From positions 1 through 39,933 of IMG/VR virus record IMGVR_UViG_2778261217_000006: DNA of 39,933 nt; one strand, 5' to 3'. Both the position numbers and the translations under genes were made by a program. This document shows positions 698 to 39,195 of the stretch, piece after piece. The DNA comes from a virus (lineage: Duplodnaviria > Heunggongvirae > Uroviricota > Caudoviricetes). The notes under the pieces are model-generated. The model ran no database searches and was not told where the DNA came from. It saw only the letters and a list, made by a program, of their open reading frames with translations. Numbering within the stretch: position 1 is the first letter of the stretch; each line of letters begins with the position of its first letter.

Positions 698-1060
698 GGG
701 GCTGATTCTGGATTCGACGGGATTTGCGAAACCCAAGGTGCATGCCGAGGGGCGGTTGGCCTCGTAAAAAGCCGCAAAAAATAGTCGCAAACGACGAAAA
801 CTACGCTTTAGCAGCTTAATAACCTGCTTAGAGCCCTCTCTCCCTAGCCTCCGCTCTTAGGACGGGGATCAAGAGAGGTCAAACCCAAAAGAGATCGCGT
901 GGAAGCCCTGCCTGGGGTTGAAGCGTTAAAACTTAATCAGGCTAGTTTGTTAGTGGCGTGTCCGTCCGCAGCTGGCAAGCGAATGTAAAGACTGACTAAG
1001 CATGTAGTACCGAGGATGTAGGAATTTCGGACGCGGGTTCAACTCCCGCCAGCTCCACCA
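698..1060 (+). ncRNA. ssrA: tmRNA (transfer-messenger RNA, SsrA)
   Basis: Starts GGGGCTGATTCTGGATTCGACGGG, contains the tag-reading-frame region (GCAAACGACGAAAACTACGCTTTAGCAGCTTAA) and ends ...GGTTCAACTCCCGCCAGCTCCACCA; 363 nt. Confidence 0.95.
1016..1060 (+). repeat. attL core: ssrA 3'-end copy of a 45-bp direct repeat
   Basis: Identical 45-mer ATGTAGGAATTTCGGACGCGGGTTCAACTCCCGCCAGCTCCACCA recurs at 34500..34544. Confidence 0.85.
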
Positions 1061-1070
1061 AATAAATCAA

Positions 1071-1100
1071 GGGGTTACGTGAAAGCGTAGCCCCTTTTTC
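1071..1100 (+). terminator. Rho-independent terminator after ssrA (now phage-derived sequence)
   Basis: Hairpin GGGGTTACG / CGTAGCCCC followed by TTTTTC. Confidence 0.55.
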
Positions 1101-1183
1101 TTTGGTAGTGGCGGCAAAATGGCGACAGACTTTTGCGTCCATCTTGCCTGTCGCCATCTTGAAATCATGCAAAGAGGTTTCAC

Positions 1184-1666
1184 ATGGAAGAACTTCACTT
1201 TGTTTACATCAATGCAAATGGTCGTATCGCTGTTCACTCTATACAGAGCATCAGTTATAGCGAAAATCATATACAGGGCATTTGTAAGAACACCGATCGA
1301 ATAAAAACCTTCCGAAAAGACCGCATTCTTAAACAGTACGATTCACCAGAACAAGCCATTCAGGAATGCGCGTCATTCCTCCCCGAAAGCTACTCACATC
1401 TCACTAAGCAGTCTGGTCCGAAAAAAAATACATTCGATGTGTGTTTCACCGGATTTAAGAAAGCAGATAAAGAAAGATTGGTTGATAAGGCGAATGAACA
1501 AGGATTAACGGTAAGAACCTCTATAACCCAAAGCCTTCAGATGCTCTGTTGCGGTTACAATGCAGGCCCATCAAAAGTATCGGCAGCCAGGATGAAAGGC
1601 ACAATCATCATAGATGAGCCTGGCTTTATACATTTTCTTGAAACGGGTGAGATCCCAGATGAATAA
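1184..1666 (+). CDS. Hypothetical protein with C-terminal BRCT-like domain (prophage moron between attL and ogr)
   Basis: ATG preceded by AGAGG. C-terminal ~75 aa (FDVCFTGF...GPSKVSAARMKGTIIIDEPGFIHFLETG) follows the BRCT pattern of NAD-ligase C-termini; N-terminal ~80 aa unrecognised. Confidence 0.6.
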   Translation: MEELHFVYINANGRIAVHSIQSISYSENHIQGICKNTDRIKTFRKDRILKQYDSPEQAIQECASFLPESYSHLTKQSGPKKNTFDVCFTGFKKADKERLVDKANEQGLTVRTSITQSLQMLCCGYNAGPSKVSAARMKGTIIIDEPGFIHFLETGEIPDE

Positions 1667-1692
1667 AAACCTGCCGTAGCAGGTTCTCTTTC

Positions 1693-1911
1693 TCAAAAAT
1701 TCATATGCCCCTGACCACCTGGCAATGGATGTGGAGGAGCAGTAGCAATCAGTGCGGGTGTCACAATAAACCGGACCACTGTTTCATGAGTAACAAAAGT
1801 GCTCCCGCAGTTAATATTTTGGCACTGGCAGTAACGCTCTTTGGTGCTTTCAGTTACTTGAAAACTGCTCCTTGTGTGTGCCGCATGACCACACTTTGGA
1901 CAATTCATCAT
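1693..1911 (-). CDS. ogr: Ogr/Delta-family zinc-finger late-gene transcription activator
   Basis: MNCPKCGHAAHTRSS...ERYCQCQNINCGSTF...PHPLPGG, a C4 zinc finger like P2 Ogr. The ORF track extends to 1956; start chosen at the internal ATG-ATG. Confidence 0.8.
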   Translation of the reverse strand: MMNCPKCGHAAHTRSSFQVTESTKERYCQCQNINCGSTFVTHETVVRFIVTPALIATAPPHPLPGGQGHMNF

Positions 1912-3562: not shown

Positions 3563-6500
3563 GCGTCGTATCCCCCCTGATCGCTGTAGTTACTCCTGGC
3601 TTTTGCCTTCAGCCTGCGTTCACGTTCATCAAGCTGGCGTGCCACCTCCCGCGCAATATCCTGCGCACTTTGTCCTGGCTGCGTCTGAATGATGATCTGC
3701 GTCGGTGCCTCAATCCGTTGAACGAGCGGCACAGTGGCTGCGCGACTCACAATTGCTTCTCCACCTTTCGCGGGAAGTGCCAAAGGGTGCAACGGTGGAA
3801 GCTCTGCTGGCGCGGCAGCAACGCCCATCATTCCGGCAACAACGGCAGCCAGTGCAGCTGTATTTCTCCGGCTGGTCACATTTGCCGGGCCGTTAACAAT
3901 TTCCGGCCCGTTTTCACCGACGATGCCAAACTGCCCGCGCGGGATATACCCGCCGCTGTCATACATCCCCGCAAAGCCATATCCCCATGATGGAAAACCA
4001 CCCGATGGCATCATCACTTTACCGTCTGCATTCACCGTCGCAGGTTGCTGACGCGTCACGCTTTCCGGCAGTTTTGCCTTTGCGGCCTCTTTACTGACAA
4101 TGCCGAGCTTCTCCAGCAACCAGGAAACGCCGGATTTCAGGGAGTCCAGCGGATGCATGACCATATTCAGCCCTTCCGCCAGTGCCTCCCCGAATCGCCG
4201 CCCCATTGCCGCTGCGCTCTGCAGTTCGGCAGAGGTCGACTTAACGGGCGTCAGCAGATCAGTAAACCAGCCCCACAGCGCCTGCACTTTGTCGCCAATC
4301 CACTGGAACACGGGCTTAAGCGGTTCGAACGCTGCACTGATGGGACCTGCCGCCGCTTTGAATCCTTCCACCACGCCACCGAGAAATGCGGTGATGGGTT
4401 GCCAGTATTTCCAGACAACCAGCGCCACGCCCGCCAGTGCAGTAACCACAAGACCTATCGGACTGAGCAGAGCACCTAACAGACCAGATATGGCATACAG
4501 GGCAACGCGCAGCATCGCCAGTGGACCAGATGCCAGTACTCGCAGCACCGTGCCTGCGGCGGCCAGTCCACCGCGCAGTACCGCCAGAGGATTCATAAAC
4601 ATCACAGCAACAGCACGTAAACCGGATAATCCAGACCGCAAAAGTACAACCGGCGCACCTGCTACAGTTTTCAGGACATTTCCCGTCAGTGATGCCGTGC
4701 GGCGCAAAGACGACAACGGCGCAGTAAGTAAACCTGCGGCGTTGCCCGATGAAGCAAGCCCGCGTCGCAGCAGTGCCAGTGGTGCGCCAGCCAGCCAGGA
4801 CAACGCGCTGCTGGTTCGAGTTACTGCTGCCGTAACGGAAGATAACGTTTTGATACCCAACACAGAGAATCCCAGACGGATCACTGCCAGCGGCCCCAGC
4901 ACTGCAGCCAGCGCCAGCGCTAAGGTGCCAAGGCCGACGGTAACCGCAGCCACAACAGCCGATGCTTTCATCAGTGTGCCTGTCAGTTCCGGGTTAGCTT
5001 CCACCCAGCGACGCAACGCCCCCGTGACGATTTTCACCGTGTACAGAATATCCATCAGCGGCTGGCGCAGCGTTTCGCCCAGGCTGCTGAAGGTGTTCTG
5101 CGCTCCGGTTTTGACCAGCAACCACTGCGCAGAAAGTGAATCCTTGTTAATGTCGGATTCTTTCTGCATGGAGCCGAGCGCATCATTGCCCGCTGTCAGT
5201 TTTAACTGACGCTGCAGTTCCGGCAGGTTGTTTGCCAGTTTCGCCGCGTCATCGCCAAACTCTTTACCAAACAACATAGTCATGGCAGACAGGCGCTTGT
5301 CCTGCGGCAGCGCGTTTACCTTCTCCAGCACGCGCTGGATGGTTCCCATCGCATCCTTCGTCATCTGCTTTTCAATCACTTCAGGATTGAGTTTCAGCAG
5401 ATTCATCCCTTCAAAGAAACTCTTGCTTTGCATGGTGGCAATGGACAATTCACGCACCATCGCGTTTGCTGCACTGGCTGCAACCTCTGGCGCAGCGCCC
5501 AGTGTCAGGAAGGTGGAACCCAGCGCCGCCGCTTTACGATAATCCAGACGGTCAGCCACACCGCCCAGACGTTGCATCACATCAATGATGTCTGCCCCTT
5601 TCGACATGGCGTTATCATCCAGATAGTTCAGCGCATCACCGAGCTGTTCAATATTGCGGGTGGGGATTTTGTAGAGCTGGGCGATTTTCCCCAGACTTTC
5701 TGACAGTTCATCCGCTGGCAGCTCAAAGGCTGTTGCCGCCTTTGCTGCCGTACTGGCGAAGGCCAGCAGGTCACGTTTCTGATCTTCCCAGCTGTCGTCA
5801 GGGTTTGCGACGTTCATGCGCGCACCACCTTCAACCAGTGCAGCGAAGTCCACCGCACCGTTTTCCATCGGCAACTGTTCGCTGGCAGCCTTGATGGCAT
5901 CCTGCATTTCATAAAAACGTGCAGTGCGGTTGCCATTATCGTCACGCAGACCATTGACCTGCTTTGCCACACCTTTCATGGCATCTTCCATGCTGGTATA
6001 GCTTTTTACTGCCGCCATCACTGGCGCACCCATTGCCAGCCCTGCAGCCGTGGTGGTGGCTCCGGCACCTGCAATACGATCACGCACCTCCAGCGAACGG
6101 GCATAACTGGCACGCGCTGCATTCATCCTGCGCTGAGCTTCCCCCAGTCGCTTCAGCCGCGCCTCCTGTTTCGAAAGTTCCTGGTTATAACGTGATGTTT
6201 CACGGGCTAAACGGGCAGTTGCTCCCGCATCGTCTTTCGCAGAAATTCCCGCCCGGTACAGTTCAGCACGCACAAGCGCCGTCTGCTGCTGCAGCTTTTT
6301 CTGGCGTTCTTCCAGGCGCTGAACAGCCAGCCGTTGACGGCCCAGAGCAACAACCTGACGTTGCGAAGGCGGCCCCATCGCTCCCAGTTCCTGACTGAGC
6401 AAATTTGCACGCTGGCGGGCATAGTTCAGCCTGTCGCCTAATTTCTGATTTTCTGCCTGCAGCTTTCGGAAGCTGTCCAGACTGCTCCCGGCCTGATCAA

Positions 6501-6636
6501 GCTGCTTTATTGCATCGCGGGATTTTTTGACAGCAGCAGCCAGTTCTCTTGAACTGGCCTGCGCAGATCGAAATGGGCGGGTGAGCTTGTCAACCGCATT
6601 AAGAATGACCTGCAGACGCAGGTTGTTATCACTCAT
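3559..6636 (-). CDS. T: Tail tape measure protein gpT
   Basis: 1025 aa, coiled-coil and Ala/Gly-rich hydrophobic repeats typical of tape measure proteins; follows E/E'. Confidence 0.9.
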   Translation of the reverse strand: MSDNNLRLQVILNAVDKLTRPFRSAQASSRELAAAVKKSRDAIKQLDQAGSSLDSFRKLQAENQKLGDRLNYARQRANLLSQELGAMGPPSQRQVVALGRQRLAVQRLEERQKKLQQQTALVRAELYRAGISAKDDAGATARLARETSRYNQELSKQEARLKRLGEAQRRMNAARASYARSLEVRDRIAGAGATTTAAGLAMGAPVMAAVKSYTSMEDAMKGVAKQVNGLRDDNGNRTARFYEMQDAIKAASEQLPMENGAVDFAALVEGGARMNVANPDDSWEDQKRDLLAFASTAAKAATAFELPADELSESLGKIAQLYKIPTRNIEQLGDALNYLDDNAMSKGADIIDVMQRLGGVADRLDYRKAAALGSTFLTLGAAPEVAASAANAMVRELSIATMQSKSFFEGMNLLKLNPEVIEKQMTKDAMGTIQRVLEKVNALPQDKRLSAMTMLFGKEFGDDAAKLANNLPELQRQLKLTAGNDALGSMQKESDINKDSLSAQWLLVKTGAQNTFSSLGETLRQPLMDILYTVKIVTGALRRWVEANPELTGTLMKASAVVAAVTVGLGTLALALAAVLGPLAVIRLGFSVLGIKTLSSVTAAVTRTSSALSWLAGAPLALLRRGLASSGNAAGLLTAPLSSLRRTASLTGNVLKTVAGAPVVLLRSGLSGLRAVAVMFMNPLAVLRGGLAAAGTVLRVLASGPLAMLRVALYAISGLLGALLSPIGLVVTALAGVALVVWKYWQPITAFLGGVVEGFKAAAGPISAAFEPLKPVFQWIGDKVQALWGWFTDLLTPVKSTSAELQSAAAMGRRFGEALAEGLNMVMHPLDSLKSGVSWLLEKLGIVSKEAAKAKLPESVTRQQPATVNADGKVMMPSGGFPSWGYGFAGMYDSGGYIPRGQFGIVGENGPEIVNGPANVTSRRNTAALAAVVAGMMGVAAAPAELPPLHPLALPAKGGEAIVSRAATVPLVQRIEAPTQIIIQTQPGQSAQDIAREVARQLDERERRLKAKARSNYSDQGGYDA

Positions 6637-6762
6637 CGTTGGCCCCGCTTCTCTGAATCGCTTTATACCGCCATTCCAGCACTTCGGTCAGCGGCATAAC
6701 GTCAGTAACGGATGGCGGCCAGTGAAAAATGGTGGCGATATCTGCCACCAGATCGTCAACCG

Positions 6763-7065
6763 TCAGGCTGTCGGTAAACCGGCAAGCACCGACTTCTTCA
6801 ACAAAAAAGTGACAACCTCAACCGACATGGCAGTGAGATCTGCCGGGTCCATCTCTGCAATTTCCTGTGCAGTCAGTGCCGGACTGGAGATGCGGGGGAT
6901 CACGGTCATCATCGCGTTTACATCCATATCCATAATGGCCTGCAGGCGTGTACCGCGCAGCGCACCGGACTGCGGTTTACGCAGCACAATTTCGGTGATT
7001 TCTGTTTTACCGCGCTTGATGGGGGTATCCAGTTGAATGGTCTTTTCAGTCTGCTTATCGCTCAT
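6763..7065 (-). CDS. E: Tail chaperone gpE; -1 frameshift product E+E' would extend to 6629
   Basis: 100 aa ORF; slippery heptamer T_TTT_TTG at 6802..6808 (minus strand) with the -1 frame open to a TGA at 6629 overlapping the T start. Confidence 0.8.
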   Translation of the reverse strand: MSDKQTEKTIQLDTPIKRGKTEITEIVLRKPQSGALRGTRLQAIMDMDVNAMMTVIPRISSPALTAQEIAEMDPADLTAMSVEVVTFLLKKSVLAGLPTA

Positions 7066-7119
7066 TTTGCTGTCCTGTCAATTGGGTTCTGGCGCGGTAT
7101 CCCGCGCCGTTCAGATATA

Positions 7120-7635
7120 TCAGAGGCCGAGGGCGTTGCGGTGCGCTTCCATCAGGTCCACACCGTCCACAATTTCCACCATGTTGATAAGGTCCACTTC
7201 ATAGAGCACCTCACCATTGATGGTCAGCTTCGCGTAGCTGTTGGTACTGGTCACTTTGGTGGTGTTGCTTTCGCCCGTCTTCCACTCGCCGGAATCCACT
7301 TCTTTGTGACGTCCACGCACGACAAGCTCCACGGCCTGCACTTCCCCGGTATCGTCACGCTGAATAGAGCCGGTAAAGCGCAGCTGGATGCCATCCACCG
7401 TGGCTTTACCCATCTGTTTAAACAGCAGCAATTCAGTACCACCAATGGAAAATTCTGTGTCCAGCGCACTGTCATCAAGCCCCAGATCCACATCCACCGC
7501 ACCCGGCATTCCGCCGCCGCGATACTTCTCATATTTGCGGGTAAATTTCGGCAGCGTCAGCGACTCAACGATCCCCTGCCAGTTGTTCCCGTCGTTAAAC
7601 AGGTTCAGGTGTTTTAATTTGCGTGGTAAAGCCAT
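7120..7635 (-). CDS. FII: Tail tube protein gpFII
   Basis: 171 aa; position after the sheath gene and size match P2 FII. Confidence 0.85.
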   Translation of the reverse strand: MALPRKLKHLNLFNDGNNWQGIVESLTLPKFTRKYEKYRGGGMPGAVDVDLGLDDSALDTEFSIGGTELLLFKQMGKATVDGIQLRFTGSIQRDDTGEVQAVELVVRGRHKEVDSGEWKTGESNTTKVTSTNSYAKLTINGEVLYEVDLINMVEIVDGVDLMEAHRNALGL

Positions 7636-7644
7636 GTTGTCCCC

Positions 7645-8817
7645 TTACGCGCTGACCTGGCTGGCGAAATTCACCAGGTACTGATCGGTGATGCGCTGAC
7701 GCAGCATCAGGTTTTCAAGTGGCGGCACTGGCGTGTAGTCGTAGTCGATGGTGAGTTTTCCGGCTTTCAGCGTGTCTTTGTCGTTCACCGACTCATCCAG
7801 CCAGCAATCACCACCAATGAGATAGCCCTGACTGACCAGGCTGCGCATTTTGGCGCGGATACCCTCGATAATGTCGCGCGCCAGCGACGGGTTAAGCGGT
7901 TTATCCACCGCCCACATGTGTGCTTCTGCCATCGTGTCCATCAGCACCTGCGCCGTGCGGGTGTAGTTTTCGAAGGCAAAGAGCGGGTCATCACTCAGGC
8001 AGCGGGAACCCCAGAAGCGGAAACCGTCTTTACGCACAAGCGTGGTGACGTCGTTCTGGTTCAGCAGACCTGCATCGGTTGCCGGGTCCTGCAGATCCCA
8101 GAACACATCTGCAGAAATTCCGGTGACACCGTTCACGCCCACGTTGGACAGGCTTTTGTGCCATCCGGTCTGCTCATCAATTTTGGCGCGCAGACCAAGC
8201 GCACGGGCGGTAGCATATGCCGTTGCTTCGGCATTCAGCACCGTGTCCCAGCCAGTAAAGTCAGGCCAGATCAGCATCCCTTCGCGCTGGCTGAAGTTTT
8301 CGCGGTAAGTGATCGCCTCCTGCACTGTCTTGCAGCCATACGCTGACAGGTAAGCAAATCCACGCAGGCTTTGCGCCACGCTCAGCAACTCAGTAGCTAC
8401 CGCCTTGGTGTCGTGGCCTGGCACGCCGAGAATGCGCGGTTTAACGCCGAGCTGTGACTGGGCAGATAACAGGGCTTTCATACCTGTTTTTTTACCTTCA
8501 GCAGTCACTGCGCCGATGATATTGGTCGTGGTTTCGTCTTCCGTTTCACCCTGCGGCACACGCACAACAATGGTCACGGGTTTTGCCTGGTCAGCGATGG
8601 CATCCAGCGAACGGGCCAGAGTACCTGACTCACCCGCTTTACCGCTGGCAGTCAGCACATCAGTGATCAGCACGGGTTTATTAAGAGGAAACATTTTTGC
8701 ATCGGCATCATCGCCCGTGCAGACCATACCCACGATGGCGGTGCTCACCGTGGTAATAGATCGGGTGCCTTCGTTGACTTCAACAACGCGCACCCCGTGG
8801 TGGTAATCCTGAGCCAT
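7645..8817 (-). CDS. FI: Contractile tail sheath protein gpFI
   Basis: 390 aa, P2 FI-like. Confidence 0.9.
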
Positions 8818-23760: not shown

Positions 23761-24600
23761 TTAGATGGCTGGGTTGATGTAATCACCCACGTCATCACCT
23801 TGTAGACTAATGTACTCAACCCGCCACTGGTCCATTCGCCGTAACGCATACAGACTGAATTCAACGTCAGGAACTGCGTTACAAGACATAAGCGCAATGA
23901 GTTCACTTTCAGACGCATCACCATGGTACGTTACAAAGAACTCTTCAATTTGTGTTGCCGCCTGCTCTGCCTCTGCTCTTGCATCCGGCCCACCATCTAT
24001 AGAATCATAGACAAGATGAATATTCAGTTCGTAAGGTACACCTTCCTCTAAATCATTGAAACGATCTTCGCCTAAATCAAAGAATACACCTATCAAATAG
24101 ACTGAATGTTTGCTAATTATCTTTGCGAGTTCTTTTTCGAATCTAAATTTCTTTGTGTCGAAAGCTCTTAGCCTACTCTCAAAAACATCAGGAAAGGCAG
24201 GTCGCCCATAGCGGGCAGCAAGCCATTGTTTTAAACCTTGCTTTTCCTCAGGGGATATTTGGCAAGTAGGGTCACATCCCACACACGTGAAACGTTCTTT
24301 ATCAATACGAAATTTGTTGTCATGTCTTAGTTCAATTGCATTTTGATTCGCGTCACGCGCTTGCTCTAAATGCAAATGCAGAACTCTGGGATGTTTAGCA
24401 CGTGCATAATTGCTGGCCCCCTTAATGAGAGGGCCAGCAATAAGCTCAACGCTGGGTTCAGAAGAGCTTTGCAAGTCACAATCATGACTGATCACGACAA
24501 CTTTAACGCCTATTTCCTCTTCGGTAAGAATACCCAAAGAAACTGCATCCTCATGCCTAAGAACCTGGCCTTGGCGCCATGCTGTAGCAATATCAACCAT
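23761..24600 (-). CDS. Hypothetical protein, cargo operon gene 3 (279 aa)
   Basis: ATG with AAGGAG upstream; 10 bp after the gene 2 stop; no family I can recognise (Cys cluster FTCVGCDPTC, acidic C-terminus). Confidence 0.7.
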   Translation of the reverse strand: MVDIATAWRQGQVLRHEDAVSLGILTEEEIGVKVVVISHDCDLQSSSEPSVELIAGPLIKGASNYARAKHPRVLHLHLEQARDANQNAIELRHDNKFRIDKERFTCVGCDPTCQISPEEKQGLKQWLAARYGRPAFPDVFESRLRAFDTKKFRFEKELAKIISKHSVYLIGVFFDLGEDRFNDLEEGVPYELNIHLVYDSIDGGPDARAEAEQAATQIEEFFVTYHGDASESELIALMSCNAVPDVEFSLYALRRMDQWRVEYISLQGDDVGDYINPAI

Positions 24601-24610
24601 AAATGACTAT

Positions 24611-25252
24611 CTACTCCTTCATTCCTGAACCAGGTATAGAAACAGACGACATCCACCCGTCAGTTGGCGTGCTTTTGCTCCCAGTTAAATTCGCTTTTAC
24701 ACCTGCAATTTTAAGCTGGCGAGCTTCATCGATTAAGAGATTCACAGACGACTTCCAGTCATCGCCTCGCTTAATCAAATCAATAATAGATAAGCCGTCA
24801 AACGCTTTCATTTTTGACATCAACTTAGCATTTTCTACTCCTGCTTTGTTAAAGCGATCGGCTAATCTACTGAGTTCAATGATGTAACCAGCTTTCCCAA
24901 TATCATCAGGCTGACTGTCACCGGATAACCATTTGTATAATGCTTGCCTAGTAATACCCAAATCTTTAGCCAGTTCTGACATTGATGGAGAAAGAGTATC
25001 CCTAACATTACTTAAATGTTCTGAAATTGTCCTGATATCAACAGGGTCATTATCTGTATCCCCATGATTTTCAAGTTTAGATAACCCAAAATGGACTTTA
25101 GGTTGTACAAAACCACGCCACTGGTTTACATCCTTCACAGAATAGCTCGCTCCTGTTCCACTCAGGAACATAGAGGTTGCAACAAATAACGCTCCAGCAA
25201 TAGGAGCTAAACCAGGAGTCCCATAGCAACTACCAGTCATGGATTGACGCAT
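24611..25252 (-). CDS. Hypothetical protein with central XRE-type helix-turn-helix, cargo operon gene 2 (213 aa)
   Basis: Start set at the ATG preceded by GGGGAGGTG (the track ORF begins at a GTG at 25279); HTH MSELAKDLGITRQALYKWLSG; hydrophobic Gly-rich N-terminal segment. Confidence 0.7.
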   Translation of the reverse strand: MRQSMTGSCYGTPGLAPIAGALFVATSMFLSGTGASYSVKDVNQWRGFVQPKVHFGLSKLENHGDTDNDPVDIRTISEHLSNVRDTLSPSMSELAKDLGITRQALYKWLSGDSQPDDIGKAGYIIELSRLADRFNKAGVENAKLMSKMKAFDGLSIIDLIKRGDDWKSSVNLLIDEARQLKIAGVKANLTGSKSTPTDGWMSSVSIPGSGMKE

Positions 25253-25269
25253 ATTACACCTCCCCGGTG

Positions 25270-26076
25270 TTATACCCACCTATTAATGGCATGTTGGGAT
25301 ACCATTTTATTAAAGCTTTCCTTTACAACACCATGTAGTGAATTGAACTGTTGCTCAATTGAATCTATTTCTGGCGGCATGTTTCCTTCAACATAATGGT
25401 CTGTATCAATAATTCCATGCCAAAGAGCCTTGTCGCTCCTGAACCGCTCAAGCATTTCAACCCCAAAGGGCAAGATATCTGGAGGAAAACTCAACTGACC
25501 AAACATCTTATGCAAACGAGTTACTAAAAAGCCAGTACTTATAACAGGACCAACATTTGTTTGGAAAACCATCTCGTTAACCGATTGTATCGGAGATAAA
25601 TCCAAATCTACACCATGTAAGCCATTGCAAAGGTACTGCTCAATCTTTTCACCCTCACTAGGTATTACGGCATCCAGATACCTCAAACCAAGTCTTGTCA
25701 AAAGGGCTGGGTTAGCATGTTCTATTACGACAGACAATCCTTCCATCAATGCTTTAAAGAACGGTTCATGTTCTTTGTAATCAGTCGTCTGGAAAGTAAT
25801 AAAATCGTTACCCAAGACAAAACCTGAAGTCTTAGTGATGTCAGACATATACCACTGCTGGACCATTTCAAAAGATGGCTGAGGCGATTCACCGGGCGTA
25901 TTAACATCAAACACCATTTGCATTGCCTCTCTTCTTTCAAAGAGTGGATAGCCCCTTAAACGCAATGCTTCCTGAATGTCATCGACATACTTTTTCATCG
26001 CCTTGATAGGCGTAAACTTAACTTGCGCCAGCACATAGTATACGGGTGCATTGGACATGCGATTGCTGTCACTCAT
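25270..26076 (-). CDS. Hypothetical protein, cargo operon gene 1 (268 aa)
   Basis: ATG preceded by AGGAGG; first gene of a co-directional trio; no recognisable P2/186 core homolog. Confidence 0.75.
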   Translation of the reverse strand: MSDSNRMSNAPVYYVLAQVKFTPIKAMKKYVDDIQEALRLRGYPLFERREAMQMVFDVNTPGESPQPSFEMVQQWYMSDITKTSGFVLGNDFITFQTTDYKEHEPFFKALMEGLSVVIEHANPALLTRLGLRYLDAVIPSEGEKIEQYLCNGLHGVDLDLSPIQSVNEMVFQTNVGPVISTGFLVTRLHKMFGQLSFPPDILPFGVEMLERFRSDKALWHGIIDTDHYVEGNMPPEIDSIEQQFNSLHGVVKESFNKMVSQHAINRWV

Positions 26077-26434: not shown

Positions 26435-26668
26435 TTAATGCAGCCAGCTGTCGTCTTCCCACACCTTCTGCATAATTTTCATCACTTGTTTTCTTTCTTC
26501 GTCCTGTTGCAGCCCGGTCAGTTCCACACCGTTAGAGCTACCTTTGCGGATACGAATTACCATTTTGGGATACAGGGGGCGCAGATTGCGGTAAAGCTCG
26601 GATTCAAGGGCGTCCAGGGTAGACTGGCTAATCTTCTGCTCTTTATCGATCATTATTTCAATGCGCAT
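26435..26668 (-). CDS. DinI-family protein (78 aa)
   Basis: MRIEIMIDK...IDALESEL...VWEDDSWLH aligns along its length with E. coli DinI; start set at the ATG with GAGG upstream (the track ORF begins at 26740). Confidence 0.8.
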   Translation of the reverse strand: MRIEIMIDKEQKISQSTLDALESELYRNLRPLYPKMVIRIRKGSSNGVELTGLQQDEERKQVMKIMQKVWEDDSWLH

Positions 26669-26678
26669 AAAAGTCACC

Positions 26679-26867
26679 TCAGCTGATGACATCCATTGAG
26701 CGGTTGTATTCGTGGCTTCTGATTTTTGCCATGAGTTCATCAGTCAATTCAGAAACCCACTGCAGAGCCAGCCCCTTCTCTTCATCACTACACTCACTAG
26801 CCGCTACAAGCTTAAGAAAAAAATCAATGCGCTGGAGCTTCAAAGACTCCAAAAAAAAGTCCTGCAT
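26679..26867 (-). CDS. Small hypothetical protein (62 aa), first gene of the LexA-box operon
   Basis: ATG preceded by AGGAGGAAAG; directly downstream of the LexA box. Confidence 0.55.
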   Translation of the reverse strand: MQDFFLESLKLQRIDFFLKLVAASECSDEEKGLALQWVSELTDELMAKIRSHEYNRSMDVIS

Positions 26868-32600: not shown

Positions 32601-32777
32601 AGTGCAGTATCTCTTGGTTTAAGCTCGTTTTATGATGTTTAACCCCAACTTCTAAACTCTCATATTAGAAGTTAAATACAAAAATACGATCTCGTTATTG
32701 GATTGTCAAATGGAGAGTTCATCTTGAAGATTAGTACAGGTGCAAATACGGGAGGGAGAGAGACCATCAAAAGGCTG

Positions 32778-33353
32778 ATGACAGCCTATGGTTTCAACAC
32801 TCAGATAGCGTTGGTTGAACACCTCGAAGCATCAAAAAGCACCATGGCAAACAGGATGTTACGTGATAGCTTCCCTGCTGACTGGGTTATTCAATGTGCC
32901 CTTGAAACAGGTATTTCTCTTCTTTGGCTGACAACGGGCCAAGGGGAAATGTATCCTCAAACAGAAGAAAAAAATAAGTTCAAAAACGAGAGTTCACCTA
33001 CAGTTCGCCCCCTTTCAAAGATAGTTATCCCATCAGTAAGGCAGGCAACCATTGAGAACGGAACGCTCGAAGAGATGGGGGATGTTTTCCTTGATCAGAC
33101 TTTGATACCCGGAAAAGCCGAATATTGTTTGTACGTCAAAGCTAACGACGGCAATTACATTGTTGATACATCAACAAAACAGCTTAGTAACGGAATTTGG
33201 CTCATAGACATCGACGGTATGAAAAACATCGTCAAAATTGCGCGCATACCTGGAAACAAAATAGTAGTTAACCAAGATGACACTTCATTTGAATGTTCTG
33301 TAGATGATGTGGAAGTCGTAGGACGTGCAGTCAAAGTAATCAAGAACCTCTAA
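32778..33353 (+). CDS. cI: Immunity repressor CI (186 CI-like, no S24 peptidase domain)
   Basis: N-terminal HTH ending CALETGISLLWLTTGQGE; start set at the ATG at 32778 giving 191 aa (the track ORF begins at a TTG at 32703). Confidence 0.7.
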   Translation: MTAYGFNTQIALVEHLEASKSTMANRMLRDSFPADWVIQCALETGISLLWLTTGQGEMYPQTEEKNKFKNESSPTVRPLSKIVIPSVRQATIENGTLEEMGDVFLDQTLIPGKAEYCLYVKANDGNYIVDTSTKQLSNGIWLIDIDGMKNIVKIARIPGNKIVVNQDDTSFECSVDDVEVVGRAVKVIKNL

Positions 33354-33356
33354 CTT

Positions 33357-34382
33357 ATGACCATCAGAAAACAGCCGAACGGAAAGTGGTTATGTGAATG
33401 CTACCCAAACGGGAGAGATGGCAAACGCGTACGCAAACAATTTGCGACGAAAGGCGAAGCCATTGCGTTTGAGAATTTCACCATGGATGAGGTAAACAAG
33501 AAACCTTGGCTGGGAGAAAAGGAAGATCGGCGACAACTGTCAGAAGTGATTGAGCAATGGTATTCCCTGTACGGTCAGACACTCGCTGACCCTAAGCGAT
33601 TAATGGCTAAGTTAAAAATCATTTGTAATGGACTTGGCGATCCCATCGCTTCTGAATTGACAGCAGGTGATTTCACAAAGTACCGGGAAGCCAGATTAAA
33701 AGGTGAGGTCAAAAACGAAGATGGCGTGCTCATGTCACCGGTTAAGCCCAGAACGGTGAACCTTGAACAGCGTAACCTATCCTCAGTTTTTGGCACACTG
33801 AAAAAGCTGGGACATTGGTCTGCACCCAACCCCCTCGCCGGTCTGCCAACTTTCAAAATTGCAGAAGGTGAACTGGCGTTCCTTGCTGCTGATGAAATCA
33901 AACGCCTGCTTGACGCATGTGCTGAATCTCAAAGTCCCAGTCTGCTAATGATTGCCAAGATTTGCCTGGCTACCGGGGCAAGATGGAGCGAAGCCGAAAA
34001 CCTGCAAGGTAACCAGATATCAAAGTATCGAATTACCTATACCAAAACAAAAGGAAAGAAAAACCGAACTGTTCCTATTTCTCAGGAACTGTATGAAGAA
34101 TTACCCAAAAACAGAGGAAAGTTATTCACACCATGCCGAAAGGCTTTTGAGCGTGCGGTAAAACGAGCTGGAATTGAACTACCTGAAGGTCAATGTACCC
34201 ACGTTCTGCGCCACACTTTCGCCAGTCACTTTATGATGAACGGCGGAAACATTTTGGTATTGAGGGATATTTTAGGACACGCTGATATTAAAATGACCAT
34301 GATTTATGCCCATTTTGCACCGGATCATCTGGAAGATGCCGTTACCAAAAATCCACTTCATAACCTCAACTGGCATCGCTAA
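33357..34382 (+). CDS. int: Tyrosine integrase (P2/186 type)
   Basis: 341 aa with catalytic RHRY context (ARWSE, HVLRHTF, MIYAHF); 4 nt after cI and about 120 bp from the att repeat. Confidence 0.9.
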   Translation: MTIRKQPNGKWLCECYPNGRDGKRVRKQFATKGEAIAFENFTMDEVNKKPWLGEKEDRRQLSEVIEQWYSLYGQTLADPKRLMAKLKIICNGLGDPIASELTAGDFTKYREARLKGEVKNEDGVLMSPVKPRTVNLEQRNLSSVFGTLKKLGHWSAPNPLAGLPTFKIAEGELAFLAADEIKRLLDACAESQSPSLLMIAKICLATGARWSEAENLQGNQISKYRITYTKTKGKKNRTVPISQELYEELPKNRGKLFTPCRKAFERAVKRAGIELPEGQCTHVLRHTFASHFMMNGGNILVLRDILGHADIKMTMIYAHFAPDHLEDAVTKNPLHNLNWHR

Positions 34383-34499: not shown

Positions 34500-34544
34500 A
34501 TGTAGGAATTTCGGACGCGGGTTCAACTCCCGCCAGCTCCACCA
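34500..34544 (+). repeat. attR core: second copy of the 45-bp ssrA 3'-end repeat; also the left boundary of the next island
   Basis: Identical to 1016..1060. Confidence 0.85.
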
Positions 34545-34709
34545 CTTTTTAGTTGTTTGAAGTTCAATGAAGTCTACTAAGCCCACACAGCACAAGCTCT
34601 GCGGGCTTTTTTACGTCTATTGTCGTCCAGTGAGAATTGCTGAGAACTACGAGTTATGGCACCCTGAATGGGACCCATTAAGAAGGGTCCAAAAACCGAG
34701 GGTCCCAAA

Positions 34710-35939
34710 ATGGCAAAAATCGCTAAGAAGCTCACTGACACTGAAATCAAAAGCACCAAGCCAGCCGATAAAGAAATCAACTTGTTTGACGGTGATGGTC
34801 TGATTCTACGAATCGCTCCTTTGGCGAAAGGAGGCAAGAAAAATTGGTATTTCAGGTATGCAGTACCAGTGAGCAAGAAAAGAACCAAAATGAGCCTTGG
34901 GACATATCCTCACCTTACCCTTGCAAGAGCCAGAGCCTTACGTGATGAATATCTCTCCTTTCTGGCAAATGGTGTTGATCCCCAAATCCATAACAACGAT
35001 AAGGCGAAGGCATTAAAGAGTGCTACTGAGCACACTCTCCAAGCCGTAGCGCGGAAATGGTTAGATGAGAAGGTAAAGACATCAGGTATCTCACAAGACC
35101 ATGCAGCAGACATCTGGCGCAGCTTAGAGAGAAATGTCTTTCCCGGTCTGGGTAATGTCCCTATCAATGAGATCCGACCTAAGCTCTTAAAACAACACCT
35201 TGATCCTATTGAGCAACGAGGCGTATTGGAAACTCTACGCCGTATCATTTCACGTCTGAATGAAATCTTCCGGTGGGCAGCTACTGAAGAACTTATTGAG
35301 TTCAACCCGGCTGACAACCTTGGTCAAAGATTCAGTAAACCAAAAAAGCAAAATATGCCTGCCCTTCCCCCAAGCGAATTGCCAAGGTTTATGGAATCTT
35401 TGACGAATGCGTCAATCCGGTTGGAAACACGTATGCTAATTGAATGGCAATTGTTGACATGGGTTCGTCCGGGTGAAGCCGTTCGCGCAAGGTGGTCTGA
35501 TATTGATACAACCAACAGCATTTGGAACATTCCTGCTGATTTCATGAAAATGAAAAAGCTTCACAAAGTTCCTTTGAGTAAAGAAGCTTTGCGCATCCTT
35601 GAATTAATGAAATCAATAAGTGGGCATAGAGAATGGGTTTTCCCCAGCATAAAAGCGCCTCTTAATCATATGCATGAACAAACAGCCAACGCAGCTATCA
35701 TCCGAATGGGGTTCGGAGGCGAGCTTGTAGCTCACGGTATGCGTTCTATTGCACGAACAGCGGCAGAGGAGTCTGGTAAATTCAGAGCTGAAGTTCTTGA
35801 GGCAGCGCTTGCCCACTCGAAAAAAGATGAAATTATCGCAGCATACAATCGTGCAGAATATCTGATAGAGCGACAGAGTTTGATGCAATGGTGGAGTGAT
35901 TACGTTCAAGCTCAAAGATCAAATGCTCTGGTAGCCTAA
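34710..35939 (+). CDS. P4-type tyrosine integrase (IntA-like)
   Basis: Begins MAKIAKKLTDTEIKSTKPADKEINLFDGDGL..., the typical P4-integrase N-terminus; ATG at 34710 has GAGGG upstream (the track ORF starts at 34668). Confidence 0.85.
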   Translation: MAKIAKKLTDTEIKSTKPADKEINLFDGDGLILRIAPLAKGGKKNWYFRYAVPVSKKRTKMSLGTYPHLTLARARALRDEYLSFLANGVDPQIHNNDKAKALKSATEHTLQAVARKWLDEKVKTSGISQDHAADIWRSLERNVFPGLGNVPINEIRPKLLKQHLDPIEQRGVLETLRRIISRLNEIFRWAATEELIEFNPADNLGQRFSKPKKQNMPALPPSELPRFMESLTNASIRLETRMLIEWQLLTWVRPGEAVRARWSDIDTTNSIWNIPADFMKMKKLHKVPLSKEALRILELMKSISGHREWVFPSIKAPLNHMHEQTANAAIIRMGFGGELVAHGMRSIARTAAEESGKFRAEVLEAALAHSKKDEIIAAYNRAEYLIERQSLMQWWSDYVQAQRSNALVA

Positions 35940-35977
35940 GTATCAGAATAGCTAATATAATCCTGAAGGTAAAGAAA

Positions 35978-36394
35978 ATGGAAACCCTATTCAAAGTTTT
36001 TGAAAAATTTAGTTCCAGACCACTTTTTTTTATTTTTTTCGGACTCTCACTTTGTGAATTTTTTCAGAAACAATCTGTTCTGATGAATCCATCAGCAGAT
36101 AACATCGCGAAATTATTCGCAGCCATGATATTAGTTGTTTTTTTTACTTGGGGATTTGAATGGCTAATCTTCAAGTTCAATGTAAACCTTGAACCTCATG
36201 ATCAAGGCGATATTGGACCAACAATTGGAACGGCTACTTTAGCTGTATACTTAGTTTATGCCTTTCACTTTCTCAGTGAAAATCCTGAAGCATTAAATTT
36301 AAAGTTATTAACTAACTCTGGCTTTATATACAGCACAACTCTATTATTATTCTCATTAGAATGCATGAAGCTTAGAAGACTTAAACAAAAATAA
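35978..36394 (+). CDS. Small hydrophobic membrane protein (138 aa), hypothetical
   Basis: Several predicted transmembrane stretches; AT-rich; AAGG upstream of the ATG. Confidence 0.45.
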   Translation: METLFKVFEKFSSRPLFFIFFGLSLCEFFQKQSVLMNPSADNIAKLFAAMILVVFFTWGFEWLIFKFNVNLEPHDQGDIGPTIGTATLAVYLVYAFHFLSENPEALNLKLLTNSGFIYSTTLLLFSLECMKLRRLKQK

Positions 36395-36465
36395 ACAACA
36401 TCATTGTGATGATAAATATAAAATAGGCATGGCGAAAAAAAATCACCACGCCTAAAATATAATAA

Positions 36466-38214: not shown

Positions 38215-38215
38215 A

Positions 38216-39052
38216 TTAGAACTCCACTCCATTGAACTGGATCACAAAATTAGCGCCATCTTTTATTAAATAGTTATCGCCTTCATCAGGTTCTGAATAC
38301 CATATTTTATGATGTGCAACAGCAAGGTTTTCTCGACATAGATACAGACCTACCCCATGTCCATTTGCTCTTTTGCTATAAAATAGTTCAAATAGTCGCG
38401 GGATATCATCGGTATCAATTGCCGGACCAGAATTTGCTATGATAACCAAAGAATTCACAAAACCAATCTTTATGAGCCTATTATTTGACAGACTGACCCA
38501 ATACATTGCATTGTTGATAATATTAGTAAAAACAGGATAGATCCTTGATGGTATATCTGTTATTGCGATTTGCTTAAACTCTTCACTAAATTCAATAGTT
38601 ATTCGTTGCCGTTCGAAACGCTCCCCAAAGAACTTCAGGACATAATCCATGATATTTTTTCCAGTTATTCTCTGCCTGGATTGATAACCTGATATTTTCA
38701 AAGGTGATAAGAAACGTATTTGTTGAGTAAGCGATCTGTGAGCATTTAACGCCAATGAAAAACCAGGGTGTTCTTTTACAGAAGTAGGAAGAGAGTTTAG
38801 TCCTCTGGTTACCATAGAATCCATTTCTTCAAGTTCATGAGATATTATCTCAACACTAATACCTAACTGTGCAAGCGCGTTTAAACTTTTAGCTTTTTCT
38901 TCAAAATATGAGCGTTCTTCTTCAGATAATGAGAATGCTGAATCTAAGTTTATACCTTCAAATAATCTATCGAGACCTTTTATTATTGATTGATATTTGA
39001 AAGTTAGGGTATCAACTGACTCAACATATAAACTATCGAGCAAATTAAACAC
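38216..39052 (-). CDS. Histidine-kinase-like protein (HisKA H-box plus HATPase_c N, G1, G2 boxes); frame is open upstream to 39226 with no start codon
   Basis: H-box ISHELEEM, N-box NIINNAMYW, G-boxes IANSGPAID and GHGVGLYL; the track start is a GTG; the frame continues upstream into the overlap with the next ORF. Confidence 0.7.
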   Translation of the reverse strand: MFNLLDSLYVESVDTLTFKYQSIIKGLDRLFEGINLDSAFSLSEEERSYFEEKAKSLNALAQLGISVEIISHELEEMDSMVTRGLNSLPTSVKEHPGFSLALNAHRSLTQQIRFLSPLKISGYQSRQRITGKNIMDYVLKFFGERFERQRITIEFSEEFKQIAITDIPSRIYPVFTNIINNAMYWVSLSNNRLIKIGFVNSLVIIANSGPAIDTDDIPRLFELFYSKRANGHGVGLYLCRENLAVAHHKIWYSEPDEGDNYLIKDGANFVIQFNGVEF

Positions 39053-39195
39053 ATTTTCAATTTGTGAATCATTATCTATTGAATCAACAACTGATATAGT
39101 TTTAGCATAATAATCACTTCGATCAACCTTTATTTCATCGGCCCATTTTTTTAAAAGAGAATGTATCTTCTCCTCTATCGTGTTATTAAACTTAG

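What the first reader, a model, noticed from the sequence alone, without database searches (positions are those of the whole stretch)
1184..1666. Small BRCT-domain protein encoded as a moron between attL and ogr
P2-type genomes normally have no gene between ogr and the attachment site. Here a 160-aa ORF with a good ribosome-binding site sits there, transcribed away from ssrA. Its C-terminal half follows the BRCT fold pattern seen in NAD-ligase C-termini (F.TG...R......G......S.......L..G...G.SK...A...G..II.E..F), and its N-terminal ~80 aa are unrecognisable. BRCT modules bind phosphoproteins or DNA ends, so this could be a host-targeting or defence-related accessory protein expressed from the lysogen.
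Basis: inference. Interest (0 to 1): 0.55.

Follow-up and report, generated by a model that had tools for sequence, protein, structure and literature searches.

The report
Prophage WYL–BRCT protein linked to repressor
The 160-residue gene next to ssrA is a real, conserved prophage gene whose protein joins a WYL domain to a ligase/RFC1-type BRCT domain; in related phages it sits directly behind the repressor gene, so it is probably a DNA-structure-binding factor made in lysogens, and its function has never been tested.

Summary
The ORF (1184-1666, +) is real, has a good ribosome-binding site, and lies between the ssrA attL and ogr of a 186-like prophage. Orthologues show strong purifying selection (dN/dS 0.04-0.15).

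It is not a random moron. In phages of Xenorhabdus, Yersinia ruckeri, Pectobacterium, Serratia, Mannheimia, Vibrio and Burkholderia the homologue lies directly downstream of the repressor, usually in the order cI-X-int. In this lineage the circular order is cI-int-attP-X, so integration moves it to the far end of the prophage.

Many remote relatives carry N-terminal membrane helices, and the two checked occupy the same post-repressor position. There is no catalytic domain, so the "DNA ligase" annotation is wrong.

Most likely it binds ssDNA/5'-phosphate junctions in the lysogen. I favour superinfection exclusion or defence as the outcome; tuning of the DNA-damage response is the main rival. 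The function is inferred, not shown. Interest is moderate.

The parts
1016..1060 (+). attL core: the 3' end of ssrA, repeated exactly at 34500-34544 (attR)
   Evidence: A 45-bp exact repeat was found by script. The tmRNA gene spans 698-1060.
1069..1103 (+). Phage-supplied intrinsic terminator for ssrA (stem-loop 1069-1096 plus T tract). It also lies between int and the ORF in the circular phage.
   Evidence: Terminator scan: 12-pair stem with 6 GC pairs. The MFE fold retains it. It is conserved in orthologous loci.
1108..1128 (+). Conserved block GTGGCGGCAAAATGGCG(A/G)CAG in the attP P' arm. It may be an Int arm or IHF site; that is inference only.
   Evidence: The block is invariant in 5 aligned loci, while the next ~50 bp diverge.
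1172..1177 (+). Ribosome-binding site AAGAGG, 6 nt before the ATG
   Evidence: Read directly from the sequence.
1184..1666 (+). WYL-BRCT gene, 160 aa (RefSeq WP_000391793.1 'BRCT domain-containing protein'; phrog_2561)
   Evidence: dN/dS is 0.04-0.15.
1184..1345 (+). WYL domain (residues 1-54): five-stranded Sm-like barrel. Y8 and T42 are invariant, F43 is 95% conserved, and K41, R44, K45 and R47 are conserved basic residues.
1346..1432 (+). Linker (residues 55-83): two short helices and a lower-confidence loop
   Evidence: AF2 secondary structure and a pLDDT dip to 67. This is the length-variable region in the family alignment.
1433..1645 (+). BRCT domain (residues 84-154), LigA/RFC1 class. 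T89, G90, F91 and K131 are invariant. K96 is always K or R. K92, K93, R111 and T115 are conserved.
1640..1657 (+). Conserved C-terminal motif ETGEIP (residues 153-158), role unknown
   Evidence: T154, G155 and E156 are at least 90% conserved.
1668..1685 (.). Hairpin between the convergent WYL-BRCT and ogr genes (candidate shared terminator)
   Evidence: Terminator scan.
1693..1911 (-). ogr (late-gene activator), convergent neighbour
   Evidence: ORF list. RefSeq annotation of near-identical genomes.
32703..33353 (+). 186-type cI repressor. This is the gene the WYL-BRCT gene follows directly in related phages.
   Evidence: Pfam Phage_CI_repr plus Phage_CI_C.
33357..34382 (+). Integrase. In the circular phage it lies 285 bp upstream of the WYL-BRCT start, across attP.
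   Evidence: Pfam Int_N plus Phage_integrase. Distance computed. The same order is seen in the circular Yersinia phage MLG42 record.
34500..34544 (+). attR core
   Evidence: Exact repeat of 1016-1060.

Best explanation
The gene encodes a small cytoplasmic two-domain protein with no catalytic or helix-turn-helix domain.

Domains:
- The N-terminal WYL domain belongs to the ligand-sensing barrel family that binds single-stranded DNA in PafBC, DriD and CapW.
- The C-terminal BRCT domain is of the LigA/RFC1 class. That class holds a 5'-phosphate DNA end and prefers one next to single-stranded DNA.
- A flexible linker joins the two.

Genomic place: it is an accessory gene of the prophage lysogeny module. 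In most relatives it is the next gene after the repressor and is presumably co-transcribed with it. In this E. coli/Citrobacter/Yersinia lineage it lies after cI-int across attP, so integration strands it at the ssrA end of the prophage.

Proposed mechanism (inferred): the two domains together recognise ssDNA/dsDNA junctions that carry a 5'-phosphate. Such junctions occur in gaps, resected ends, nicks and cohesive phage ends.

Most likely outcome: the lysogen uses this to interfere with incoming or replicating foreign phage DNA, that is, superinfection exclusion or defence. It could do so by occupying ends or nicks that must be annealed, ligated or processed.

Likelihoods: domain identities about 0.95; lysogeny-module membership about 0.85; binding of nucleic-acid junctions about 0.55; exclusion/defence as the biological outcome about 0.35-0.4.
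For: Shown here:
- A real, constrained gene.
- BRCT by profile and fold, with nearest sequence relatives RFC1 and LigA.
- The phosphate-pocket triad T89-G90...K131 is invariant, and K96 aligns with the Arg of yeast Rfc1 'LER'.
- WYL by fold, by Pfam across the family and by profile against PafBC/PafC.
- In the alignment, PafC R201 and R204 correspond to R44 and R47. These two arginines are essential for ssDNA binding (PMC11804915). R44 is 98% and R47 is 84% K/R in the family.

Synteny:
- The homologue lies 2-45 nt downstream of, and co-oriented with, the repressor or repressor operon in Mannheimia PHL101, Vibrio PV94 and Burkholderia phages.
- The same holds in Xenorhabdus, Serratia, Y. ruckeri and Pectobacterium prophages and one metagenomic contig.
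- In a one-genome-per-species sample, 11 of 28 same-strand upstream neighbours are repressors.
- The circular order cI-int-attP-X is seen in Yersinia phage MLG42 and reconstructed for the window.
- ORF GC content (41.7%) matches cI (42.4%) rather than the prophage mean of 51.7%.

Pointing to exclusion/defence:
- About 36 of the 150 best remote relatives carry 1-5 N-terminal membrane helices, followed by a K/R-rich segment and a linker.
- Two such forms were examined, and both sit directly after an S24-type repressor.
- Non-prophage relatives neighbour AbiGi, MrcB_N/HNH and Mrr-type genes.
- There is a weak BRCT-region hit to the PADLOC candidate PDC-S48.
- The prophage already has a Tum-like DinI-family gene for SOS induction.

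Literature:
- The RFC1 BRCT domain prefers 5'-phosphate ends with a 3' ssDNA overhang, with Kd about 10 nM (PMC9293009).
- CapW, DriD and PafBC WYL domains bind ssDNA (PMC11662680; PMC11804915).
Against: - No binding, expression or phenotype data exist for any family member. Literature searches found none.
- The window protein has no membrane helix and no effector domain.
- The protein is near neutral overall, and its BRCT domain is net acidic (median pI 5.5). It is therefore not a general DNA-coating protein.
- The arginines that flank the WYL motif in CapW (RWHVR) are absent. The beta-2 Arg equivalent to PafB R181 is His in this subfamily. The ligand could therefore differ.
- The T-G...K pocket is shared with phosphopeptide-binding BRCTs.
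- In the window the gene is not next to cI. It is preceded by a strong terminator with no convincing promoter, so expression in the lysogen is uncertain.
- Very low dN/dS is more typical of a housekeeping-like phage function than of an arms-race gene.
- There is no hit to a validated defence system.
Confidence: 0.45

Rival explanations
1. DNA-damage sensor or modulator of the lysis-lysogeny switch. The protein binds gaps (ssDNA plus the 5'-phosphate junction that RecFOR also recognises). By doing so it tunes formation of activated RecA, or signals directly to the switch, and so adjusts prophage induction or stabilises lysogeny.
For: - All characterised stand-alone WYL sensors (PafBC, DriD, CapW) respond to ssDNA made by DNA damage.
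- The tight, conserved linkage to the repressor gene holds across three repressor types: 186-type CI, S24-cleavable CI and short HTH.
- Strong purifying selection fits a core regulatory role.
- A 2026 preprint on Roseobacter prophages lists BRCT-domain genes, beside cI, as DNA-damage-responsive lysis-lysogeny modules (PMC13345283).
Against: - There is no DNA-binding output domain and no conserved partner gene downstream.
- Membrane-anchored variants in the same genomic position fit poorly with sensing chromosomal gaps.
- This prophage already has a Tum-like antirepressor.
- P2 and 186 themselves gave no hit, so they appear to lack the gene. It is therefore dispensable for the switch.
Confidence: 0.27
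2. The protein serves the phage's own DNA transactions. It could protect or bring together the cohesive ends after injection, recruit host LigA to the cos nicks, or assist Int-mediated recombination at attP.
For: - The BRCT domain is closest to ligase and clamp-loader BRCTs that bind nicks and 5' ends.
- P2-family genomes have 5'-protruding cos ends (general knowledge).
- The gene is always near int/attP or cI.
- In the circular genome it lies just downstream of int.
Against: - It is absent from most P2-like prophages: about 171 of about 1325 E. coli genomes with an ogr-D match carry it. P2 and 186 gave no hit. It is therefore not needed for circularisation or integration.
- It would have to be made before the ends anneal.
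- Several relatives lie far from any integrase.
Confidence: 0.13
3. Phosphoprotein-binding adaptor that targets a host or phage protein. The BRCT domain would read a phospho-Ser/Thr mark and the WYL domain a small nucleotide ligand.
For: - The conserved T-G...K triad is the same pocket those domains use.
- One WYL regulator binds c-di-GMP rather than ssDNA (PMC11880434, listed).
Against: - At the sequence-profile level the nearest relatives are the DNA-binding LigA/RFC1 class, not the tandem phosphopeptide readers.
- It is a single BRCT rather than a tandem pair.
- No kinase gene is associated with it.
Confidence: 0.08
4. It is a DNA ligase or an exonuclease, as annotated in PHROGs and in some phage records.
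For: - phrog_2561 is labelled 'DNA ligase'.
- RefSeq phage records call it 'DNA ligase' or 'putative exonuclease'.
- There are weak NCBIfam hits to LigA and to a DEDDh exonuclease.
Against: - All of those hits cover only the C-terminal BRCT portion of the models. For example, they match positions 548-650 of the 652-position TIGR00575 model, at 17.6 bits against a cut-off of 444.
- The 160-aa protein is fully accounted for by WYL, linker and BRCT. It has no adenylation, OB or DEDD domain.
Confidence: 0.01

Closest known systems
wHTH-WYL-WCX regulators (PafBC, DriD, CapW, BrxR)
   Different: It has no wHTH DNA-binding domain and no WCX domain, so it cannot be a transcription factor of this family. 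The arginines flanking the WYL motif in CapW/BrxR (RWHVR) are missing. The WYL domain is paired with a BRCT domain instead.
BRCT domains of bacterial NAD-dependent DNA ligase LigA and eukaryotic RFC1 (p140)
   Different: Here the BRCT domain is not attached to a ligase or clamp-loader core. Similarity to E. coli's own LigA is weak (E=0.058), so it is not a recent capture of the host gene.
Lysogen-expressed exclusion genes next to the repressor (lambda rexAB, lactococcal sie2009, Vibrio phage K139 glo; from general knowledge)
   Same: The genomic logic is the same: an accessory gene directly downstream of, or beside, the repressor in the lysogeny module, dispensable for the phage life cycle. 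Many relatives are membrane-anchored.
   Different: There is no sequence or fold relationship. The window protein is soluble, and in the integrated state it is separated from cI. No exclusion phenotype has been tested.
WYL+BRCT domain architecture listed by Makarova et al. 2014 (PMC4012209)
   Same: That paper lists the same two-domain combination among WYL fusions.
   Different: It records only the architecture. It gives no function, no genomic-context analysis and no link to prophage repressors.
LigB subunit of the split NAD-dependent ligases of T5-like phages (PDB 9hu3_B; Eps7 LigB)
   Different: LigB works with a catalytic LigA subunit encoded nearby. No such partner exists in this prophage or in related loci, and LigB has no WYL domain.

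Membership tests
BRCT domain (PF00533), LigA/RFC1 DNA-binding class | beta-alpha-beta-beta-alpha-beta-alpha BRCT fold | tested here: met
BRCT domain (PF00533), LigA/RFC1 DNA-binding class | Significant match to the family profile | tested here: met
   The single sequence falls just below Pfam's cut-off (18.6 vs 21.3 bits). The family profile hits RFC1/LigA BRCT at 4e-5 and 1.4e-10. 37 of 43 remote homologues hit PF00533, with best E=7.5e-21.
BRCT domain (PF00533), LigA/RFC1 DNA-binding class | Phosphate-binding pocket residues (T/S-G after beta-1, basic residue in alpha-1, Lys at the start of alpha-2) | tested here: met
   T89, G90 and K131 are invariant, and K96 is 100% K/R across 44 sequences. 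They align with T-G, R and K of yeast Rfc1.
BRCT domain (PF00533), LigA/RFC1 DNA-binding class | Binding of 5'-phosphorylated DNA ends or nicks | not testable with these tools
   This needs EMSA or fluorescence polarisation with purified protein.
WYL domain (PF13280) | Five-stranded Sm/SH3-like barrel superimposable on known WYL domains | tested here: met
WYL domain (PF13280) | Significant match to the family profile | tested here: met
   The window sequence alone gives no Pfam hit. However, 10/32 close and 25/43 remote relatives hit PF13280, best E=1.2e-8. A profile that includes the window sequence hits PafBC at 3.4e-6 and PafC at 1.8e-5.
WYL domain (PF13280) | Conserved arginine pair of the R-x-F-R-x-D-R-I strand required for ssDNA binding | tested here: met
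   R44 and R47 align with PafC R201 and R204. They are 98% and 84% K/R in the family. Their requirement for binding is shown in PMC11804915.
wHTH-WYL-WCX transcription regulators (PafBC/DriD/CapW/BrxR) | N-terminal winged-helix DNA-binding domain and C-terminal WCX domain | tested here: not met
   The 160 aa are fully accounted for by WYL, linker and BRCT. No HTH family matched.
NAD-dependent DNA ligase (annotation of phrog_2561 and several phage records) | Adenylation (nucleotidyltransferase) and OB domains | tested here: not met
   Only the last ~100 positions (BRCT) of the LigA models match, at 17.6 bits against a cut-off of 444. The protein is too short and has no other domain.
Known anti-phage defence systems (PADLOC-DB v2) | Full-length match to a model of a validated system | tested here: not met
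   The only matches are a partial BRCT-region hit to the candidate PDC-S48 (E=4e-7, positions 334-406 of 411) and marginal hits to SspE and WYL.
Variable cargo ('moron') of a P2-like prophage hotspot | Presence/absence and alternative cargo at the same site among otherwise related prophages | tested here: inconclusive
   171 genomes carry the gene, against about 1325 with an ogr-D match. One related prophage has a reverse-transcriptase gene plus IS4 at the site. Across genera, however, the gene behaves as a conserved lysogeny-module member. The ogr-att site is not among the published P2 hotspots.
Repressor-linked lysogeny-module accessory genes (works-like class: rexAB, sie2009, glo) | Directly downstream of, and co-oriented with, the prophage repressor | tested here: inconclusive
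   This is met in at least 11 surveyed relatives and in 11 of 28 species-level loci. It is not met in the integrated window, where int and attP intervene and integration moves the gene 31 kb away.
Repressor-linked lysogeny-module accessory genes (works-like class: rexAB, sie2009, glo) | Exclusion or abortive-infection phenotype against superinfecting phage | not testable with these tools
   This needs phage challenge of strains with and without the gene.

The most novel reading that the evidence does not exclude
WYL-BRCT proteins, both soluble and membrane-anchored, form a widespread and so far unrecognised class of repressor-linked prophage immunity factors. They have no enzymatic effector. 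They would act by recognising the ssDNA/5'-phosphate junctions of entering or replicating phage genomes, at the inner face of the membrane in the anchored forms. They would block end joining or processing there. This would be a new, purely 'end-capping' mode of superinfection exclusion, and the first function for a BRCT domain in phage-phage conflict.
Probability: 0.2. Interest if true: 0.75.

Novelty: new variant of a known kind. Interest (0 to 1): 0.5.

Why it matters
Both domains are well known, but the combination has no characterised member. WYL domains are currently understood as ssDNA sensors wired to transcription factors or enzymes. Here one is wired only to a DNA-end-binding BRCT domain, sometimes with a membrane anchor.

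The family is common: 194 clusters at 50% identity reach E<1e-30. It is mis-annotated as "DNA ligase". Its position immediately behind the prophage repressor is strikingly conserved across three unrelated repressor types.

That position is where phages keep genes that act in the lysogen, such as rexAB and sie. The family is therefore a concrete, cheap-to-test candidate for a new exclusion mechanism or a new DNA-damage input to the lysis-lysogeny decision.

The attP-straddling arrangement in this lineage also creates a natural difference in gene context between the integrated and circular states.

Tried and rejected
- **Single-sequence Pfam on the N-terminal half** gave no hit. A profile of close relatives alone against the PDB returned only noise such as streptokinase and TubZ. 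The WYL assignment needed the fold search and a broader profile.
- **PADLOC and NCBIfam** returned only BRCT-region partial hits.
- **Literature.** Searches for WYL+BRCT+prophage, BRCT+anti-phage, BRCT+superinfection and P2-like+ogr+BRCT found no functional study. The RFC p140 BRCT papers of Kobayashi et al. are not held, so human residue numbers are from memory.
- **Own promoter.** The scan found no sigma-70 candidate between the terminator and the ATG. Inspection of the orthologue alignment found only a TGTAAT too close to the start codon. I dropped the idea of a defined promoter.
- **Structured leader.** A long hairpin at 1104-1158 appears in the window, but its right arm is not conserved, and Rfam has nothing there. 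I rejected it as a conserved element.
- **Conserved partner gene downstream.** Downstream neighbours are heterogeneous: gpD, ogr, int and assorted unknowns. Rejected.
- **Host-gene remnant.** Rejected. The gene lies inside attL/attR, occurs in phage genome records and is under purifying selection.
- **C-terminal extension of the ~400-aa relatives.** No Pfam or PDB match was found.
- **Ligase or exonuclease function.** Rejected on domain content.

Full report
**1. What is in the sequence**

The window opens with smpB and the tmRNA gene ssrA (698-1060). The last 45 bases of ssrA (1016-1060) recur exactly at 34500-34544. These are attL and attR of a ~33.5-kb prophage.

The prophage is 186-like. 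It has:
- a 186-type cI (32703-33353) followed 3 nt later by int (33357-34382);
- a Tum-like DinI-family gene;
- the usual P2-family morphogenesis genes.

Just inside attL there is a strong intrinsic terminator (1069-1096), then an AAGAGG ribosome-binding site (1172-1177), then the ORF at 1184-1666 (160 aa). A hairpin (1668-1685) separates it from convergent ogr (1693-1911) and gpD.

**2. It is a real gene**

- Identical or near-identical copies (at least 97.5% identity) are present in 171 of 5426 complete E. coli genomes, always beside ogr.
- Newer RefSeq annotations already call it "BRCT domain-containing protein" (WP_000391793.1).
- It matches phrog_2561 end to end (E=2e-76).
- It occurs in phage records from Escherichia, Yersinia, Mannheimia, Vibrio, Burkholderia and Pseudomonas.
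- Orthologues from six enterobacterial genera are all exactly 480 nt with no stops, and give dN/dS of 0.04-0.15.

This excludes a chance ORF or a remnant of a host gene.

**3. Domain content**

An alignment of 44 family members gave an AlphaFold model with mean pLDDT 91 but pTM 0.51. That means two confident domains whose mutual orientation is undefined.

*C-terminal domain (residues 84-154): BRCT.*
- At the sequence-profile level the nearest solved relatives are the BRCT domains of yeast and human RFC1 and of Thermus LigA, at 4e-5. With a profile of more distant relatives the values are 1.4e-10 and 8e-10.
- The residues that form the phosphate pocket are the most conserved in the protein. T89, G90 and K131 are invariant, and K96 is always K or R. 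In the HMMER alignment they fall on the T-G, Arg and Lys of Rfc1.

- Modelled alone it has pLDDT 95.
- Pfam WYL is hit by 10 of 32 close relatives and by 25 of 43 remote relatives, down to E=1.2e-8.
- A profile containing the window sequence hits PafBC at 3.4e-6 and PafC at 1.8e-5.
- In that alignment R44 and R47 of the conserved K-T-F-R-K-D-R-I strand correspond to PafC R201 and R204. Mutating this arginine pair abolishes ssDNA binding by PafBC (PMC11804915).
- Not every ligand contact is kept. The arginines flanking the WYL motif in CapW/BrxR (PMC11662680) are absent, and the beta-2 arginine seen in remote relatives is His here.

*What is missing.* There is no HTH, WCX, nuclease, ligase-adenylation or other domain. 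The "DNA ligase" and "exonuclease" annotations rest only on the BRCT portion of those models and are wrong.

**4. Where the gene belongs**

In the following cases the homologue is the gene immediately downstream of the repressor, or of a short repressor operon. It is co-oriented with gaps of 2-45 nt, and usually followed by int:
- Mannheimia phage PHL101, Vibrio phage PV94 and Burkholderia phages;
- prophages of Xenorhabdus, Serratia, Yersinia ruckeri and Pectobacterium, and one metagenomic contig.

The repressors involved are of three unrelated kinds: 186-type CI, HTH plus S24 peptidase, and short HTH.

In a sample of one genome per species (51 loci), 11 of 28 same-strand upstream neighbours were repressors. 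Others included AbiGi-like and MrcB_N/HNH proteins. Six further loci were of the attL-ogr type.

The E. coli/Citrobacter/Klebsiella/Yersinia-phage lineage has the attL-ogr arrangement. The circular genome record of Yersinia phage MLG42 shows what it means. The order there is cI, int, 287 bp containing attP, then the gene, then convergent gpD. Reconstructing the circle from the window gives the same order with 285 bp between int and the gene.

So the gene is still "behind the lysogeny operon". Integration cuts between int and the gene and carries the gene to the other end of the prophage. Its GC content (41.7%) matches cI (42.4%) and not the prophage average of 51.7%. It has no conserved downstream partner.

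**5. Wider family**

A profile search of 1.84 billion cluster representatives found 194 with E<1e-30.

Among the best 150:
- most are stand-alone proteins of 150-190 aa;
- about 36 carry one to five N-terminal hydrophobic helices, followed by a K/R-rich stretch and a low-complexity linker before the WYL-BRCT module. This topology places the module in the cytoplasm, tethered to the membrane;
- about 15 carry an unknown ~230-aa C-terminal domain.

Two membrane-anchored forms and one C-extended form were looked up. All three sit in the same post-repressor position.

**6. How it most likely works**

Shown: the two domain identities, the conserved ligand-pocket residues, the absence of any catalytic or output domain, and the repressor-linked synteny.

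From the literature: WYL domains of PafBC, DriD and CapW bind ssDNA. The isolated RFC1 BRCT domain binds DNA with Kd about 10 nM and prefers a 5'-phosphate end next to a 3' ssDNA overhang (PMC9293009).

Inferred: the two domains, joined by a flexible linker, together recognise ssDNA/dsDNA junctions with a 5'-phosphate. Such junctions occur in gaps, nicks, resected ends and cohesive ends.

I favour exclusion or defence in the lysogen as the outcome, for these reasons:
- the gene occupies the slot where temperate phages keep lysogen-expressed exclusion genes;
- a quarter of the relatives are membrane-tethered;
- the function is independent of repressor type;
- some non-prophage relatives lie among restriction- and Abi-like genes;
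- this prophage already has a Tum-type induction pathway.

The chief rival is a DNA-damage sensor or modulator of induction. Such a protein could, for example, compete with RecFOR at gap junctions. The biology of all characterised WYL sensors supports this, as do the very low dN/dS and a 2026 preprint that groups BRCT genes with cI as damage-responsive modules.

Lesser rivals are a role in the phage's own end joining or integration, and a phosphoprotein-binding adaptor.

**7. Caveats specific to the window**

The gene is preceded by a strong terminator in both the integrated and circular states. No convincing sigma-70 promoter lies in the 87 bp between that terminator and the start codon. Expression would therefore depend on read-through from ssrA in the lysogen, read-through from cI-int in the circle, or a weak unrecognised promoter.

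The protein is near neutral and its BRCT domain is net acidic. Any DNA binding must therefore be through the two local basic pockets, not by coating DNA.

**8. Novelty**

The WYL+BRCT combination is listed in Makarova et al. 2014, and the protein family exists in databases, mis-named. I found no functional study. The two surveys of P2 defence hotspots do not mention it or the ogr-att site.

The new elements here are the WYL assignment, the conserved post-repressor synteny, the attP-straddling arrangement and the membrane-anchored relatives. I rate it a new variant of a known kind: a WYL sensor with an unprecedented partner domain and context. Interest is moderate (0.5).

Noticed in passing
window 34668-39933: Immediately after attR there is a second, P4-type integrase (34668-35939; Arm-DNA-bind_3, Phage_int_M). 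It is followed on the minus strand by a 588-aa Response_reg_2 (PF19192) protein (36466-38232), a 278-aa HEF_HK+HATPase_c kinase-like protein (38216-39052) and a further ORF cut by the window end. This looks like a second island in tandem at ssrA carrying a kinase/receiver conflict system (Detocs-like, from memory). PADLOC v2 gave no hit.
   Followed up: partly
window 23761-26076 (- strand): Three ORFs of 279, 222 (weak HTH) and 268 aa lie between the replication gene A and the portal gene. This is the classical P2 defence hotspot. They have no Pfam or PADLOC match, so this is unknown cargo worth a separate look.
   Followed up: partly
window 26435-26740 (- strand): A 101-aa DinI-family protein lies next to gene A. 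It probably corresponds to the 186 Tum antirepressor, which implies an SOS-inducible prophage.
   Followed up: partly
L028 (E. coli strain 5735, NZ_CP154887.1) 5001-7853: In a related P2-like prophage at ssrA, the space between attL and ogr holds a reverse-transcriptase-domain gene (257 aa), a small ORF and an IS4 element instead of the WYL-BRCT gene. The ogr-att junction may be a minor cargo site not listed among the published P2 hotspots.
   Followed up: no
L005 (E. coli LF4-1, NZ_CM141450.1) 5278-7020: In a strain whose copy of the query stretch (window 1061-1700) is 100% identical, a gene annotated 'anti-phage dCTP deaminase' sits 10 bp beyond the prophage integrase. In the window that position is occupied by the second integrase island.
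   Followed up: no
L010, L002, L023 (Serratia, Burkholderia and GCA_017750905 prophages): Where the repressor is a short HTH_3 protein, an extra 212-268-aa gene lies between the repressor and the WYL-BRCT gene. One of these hits Pfam Flk_N. It could be a partner or a second repressor-operon member. Homology among the three was not tested.
   Followed up: no
window 1640-1657 (residues 153-158): A C-terminal ETGEIP motif after the last BRCT helix is conserved in at least 90% of family members. It has no counterpart in LigA or RFC1 BRCTs and may be a protein-interaction tail.
   Followed up: no
window 1061-1122: The first ~62 nt after ssrA (terminator plus the start of the conserved block) are also found in about 650 other E. 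coli genomes. In the one case examined they lie beside a degraded recombinase fragment near ypjA, far from any intact prophage. These are probably scars of earlier P2-like integrations.
   Followed up: partly
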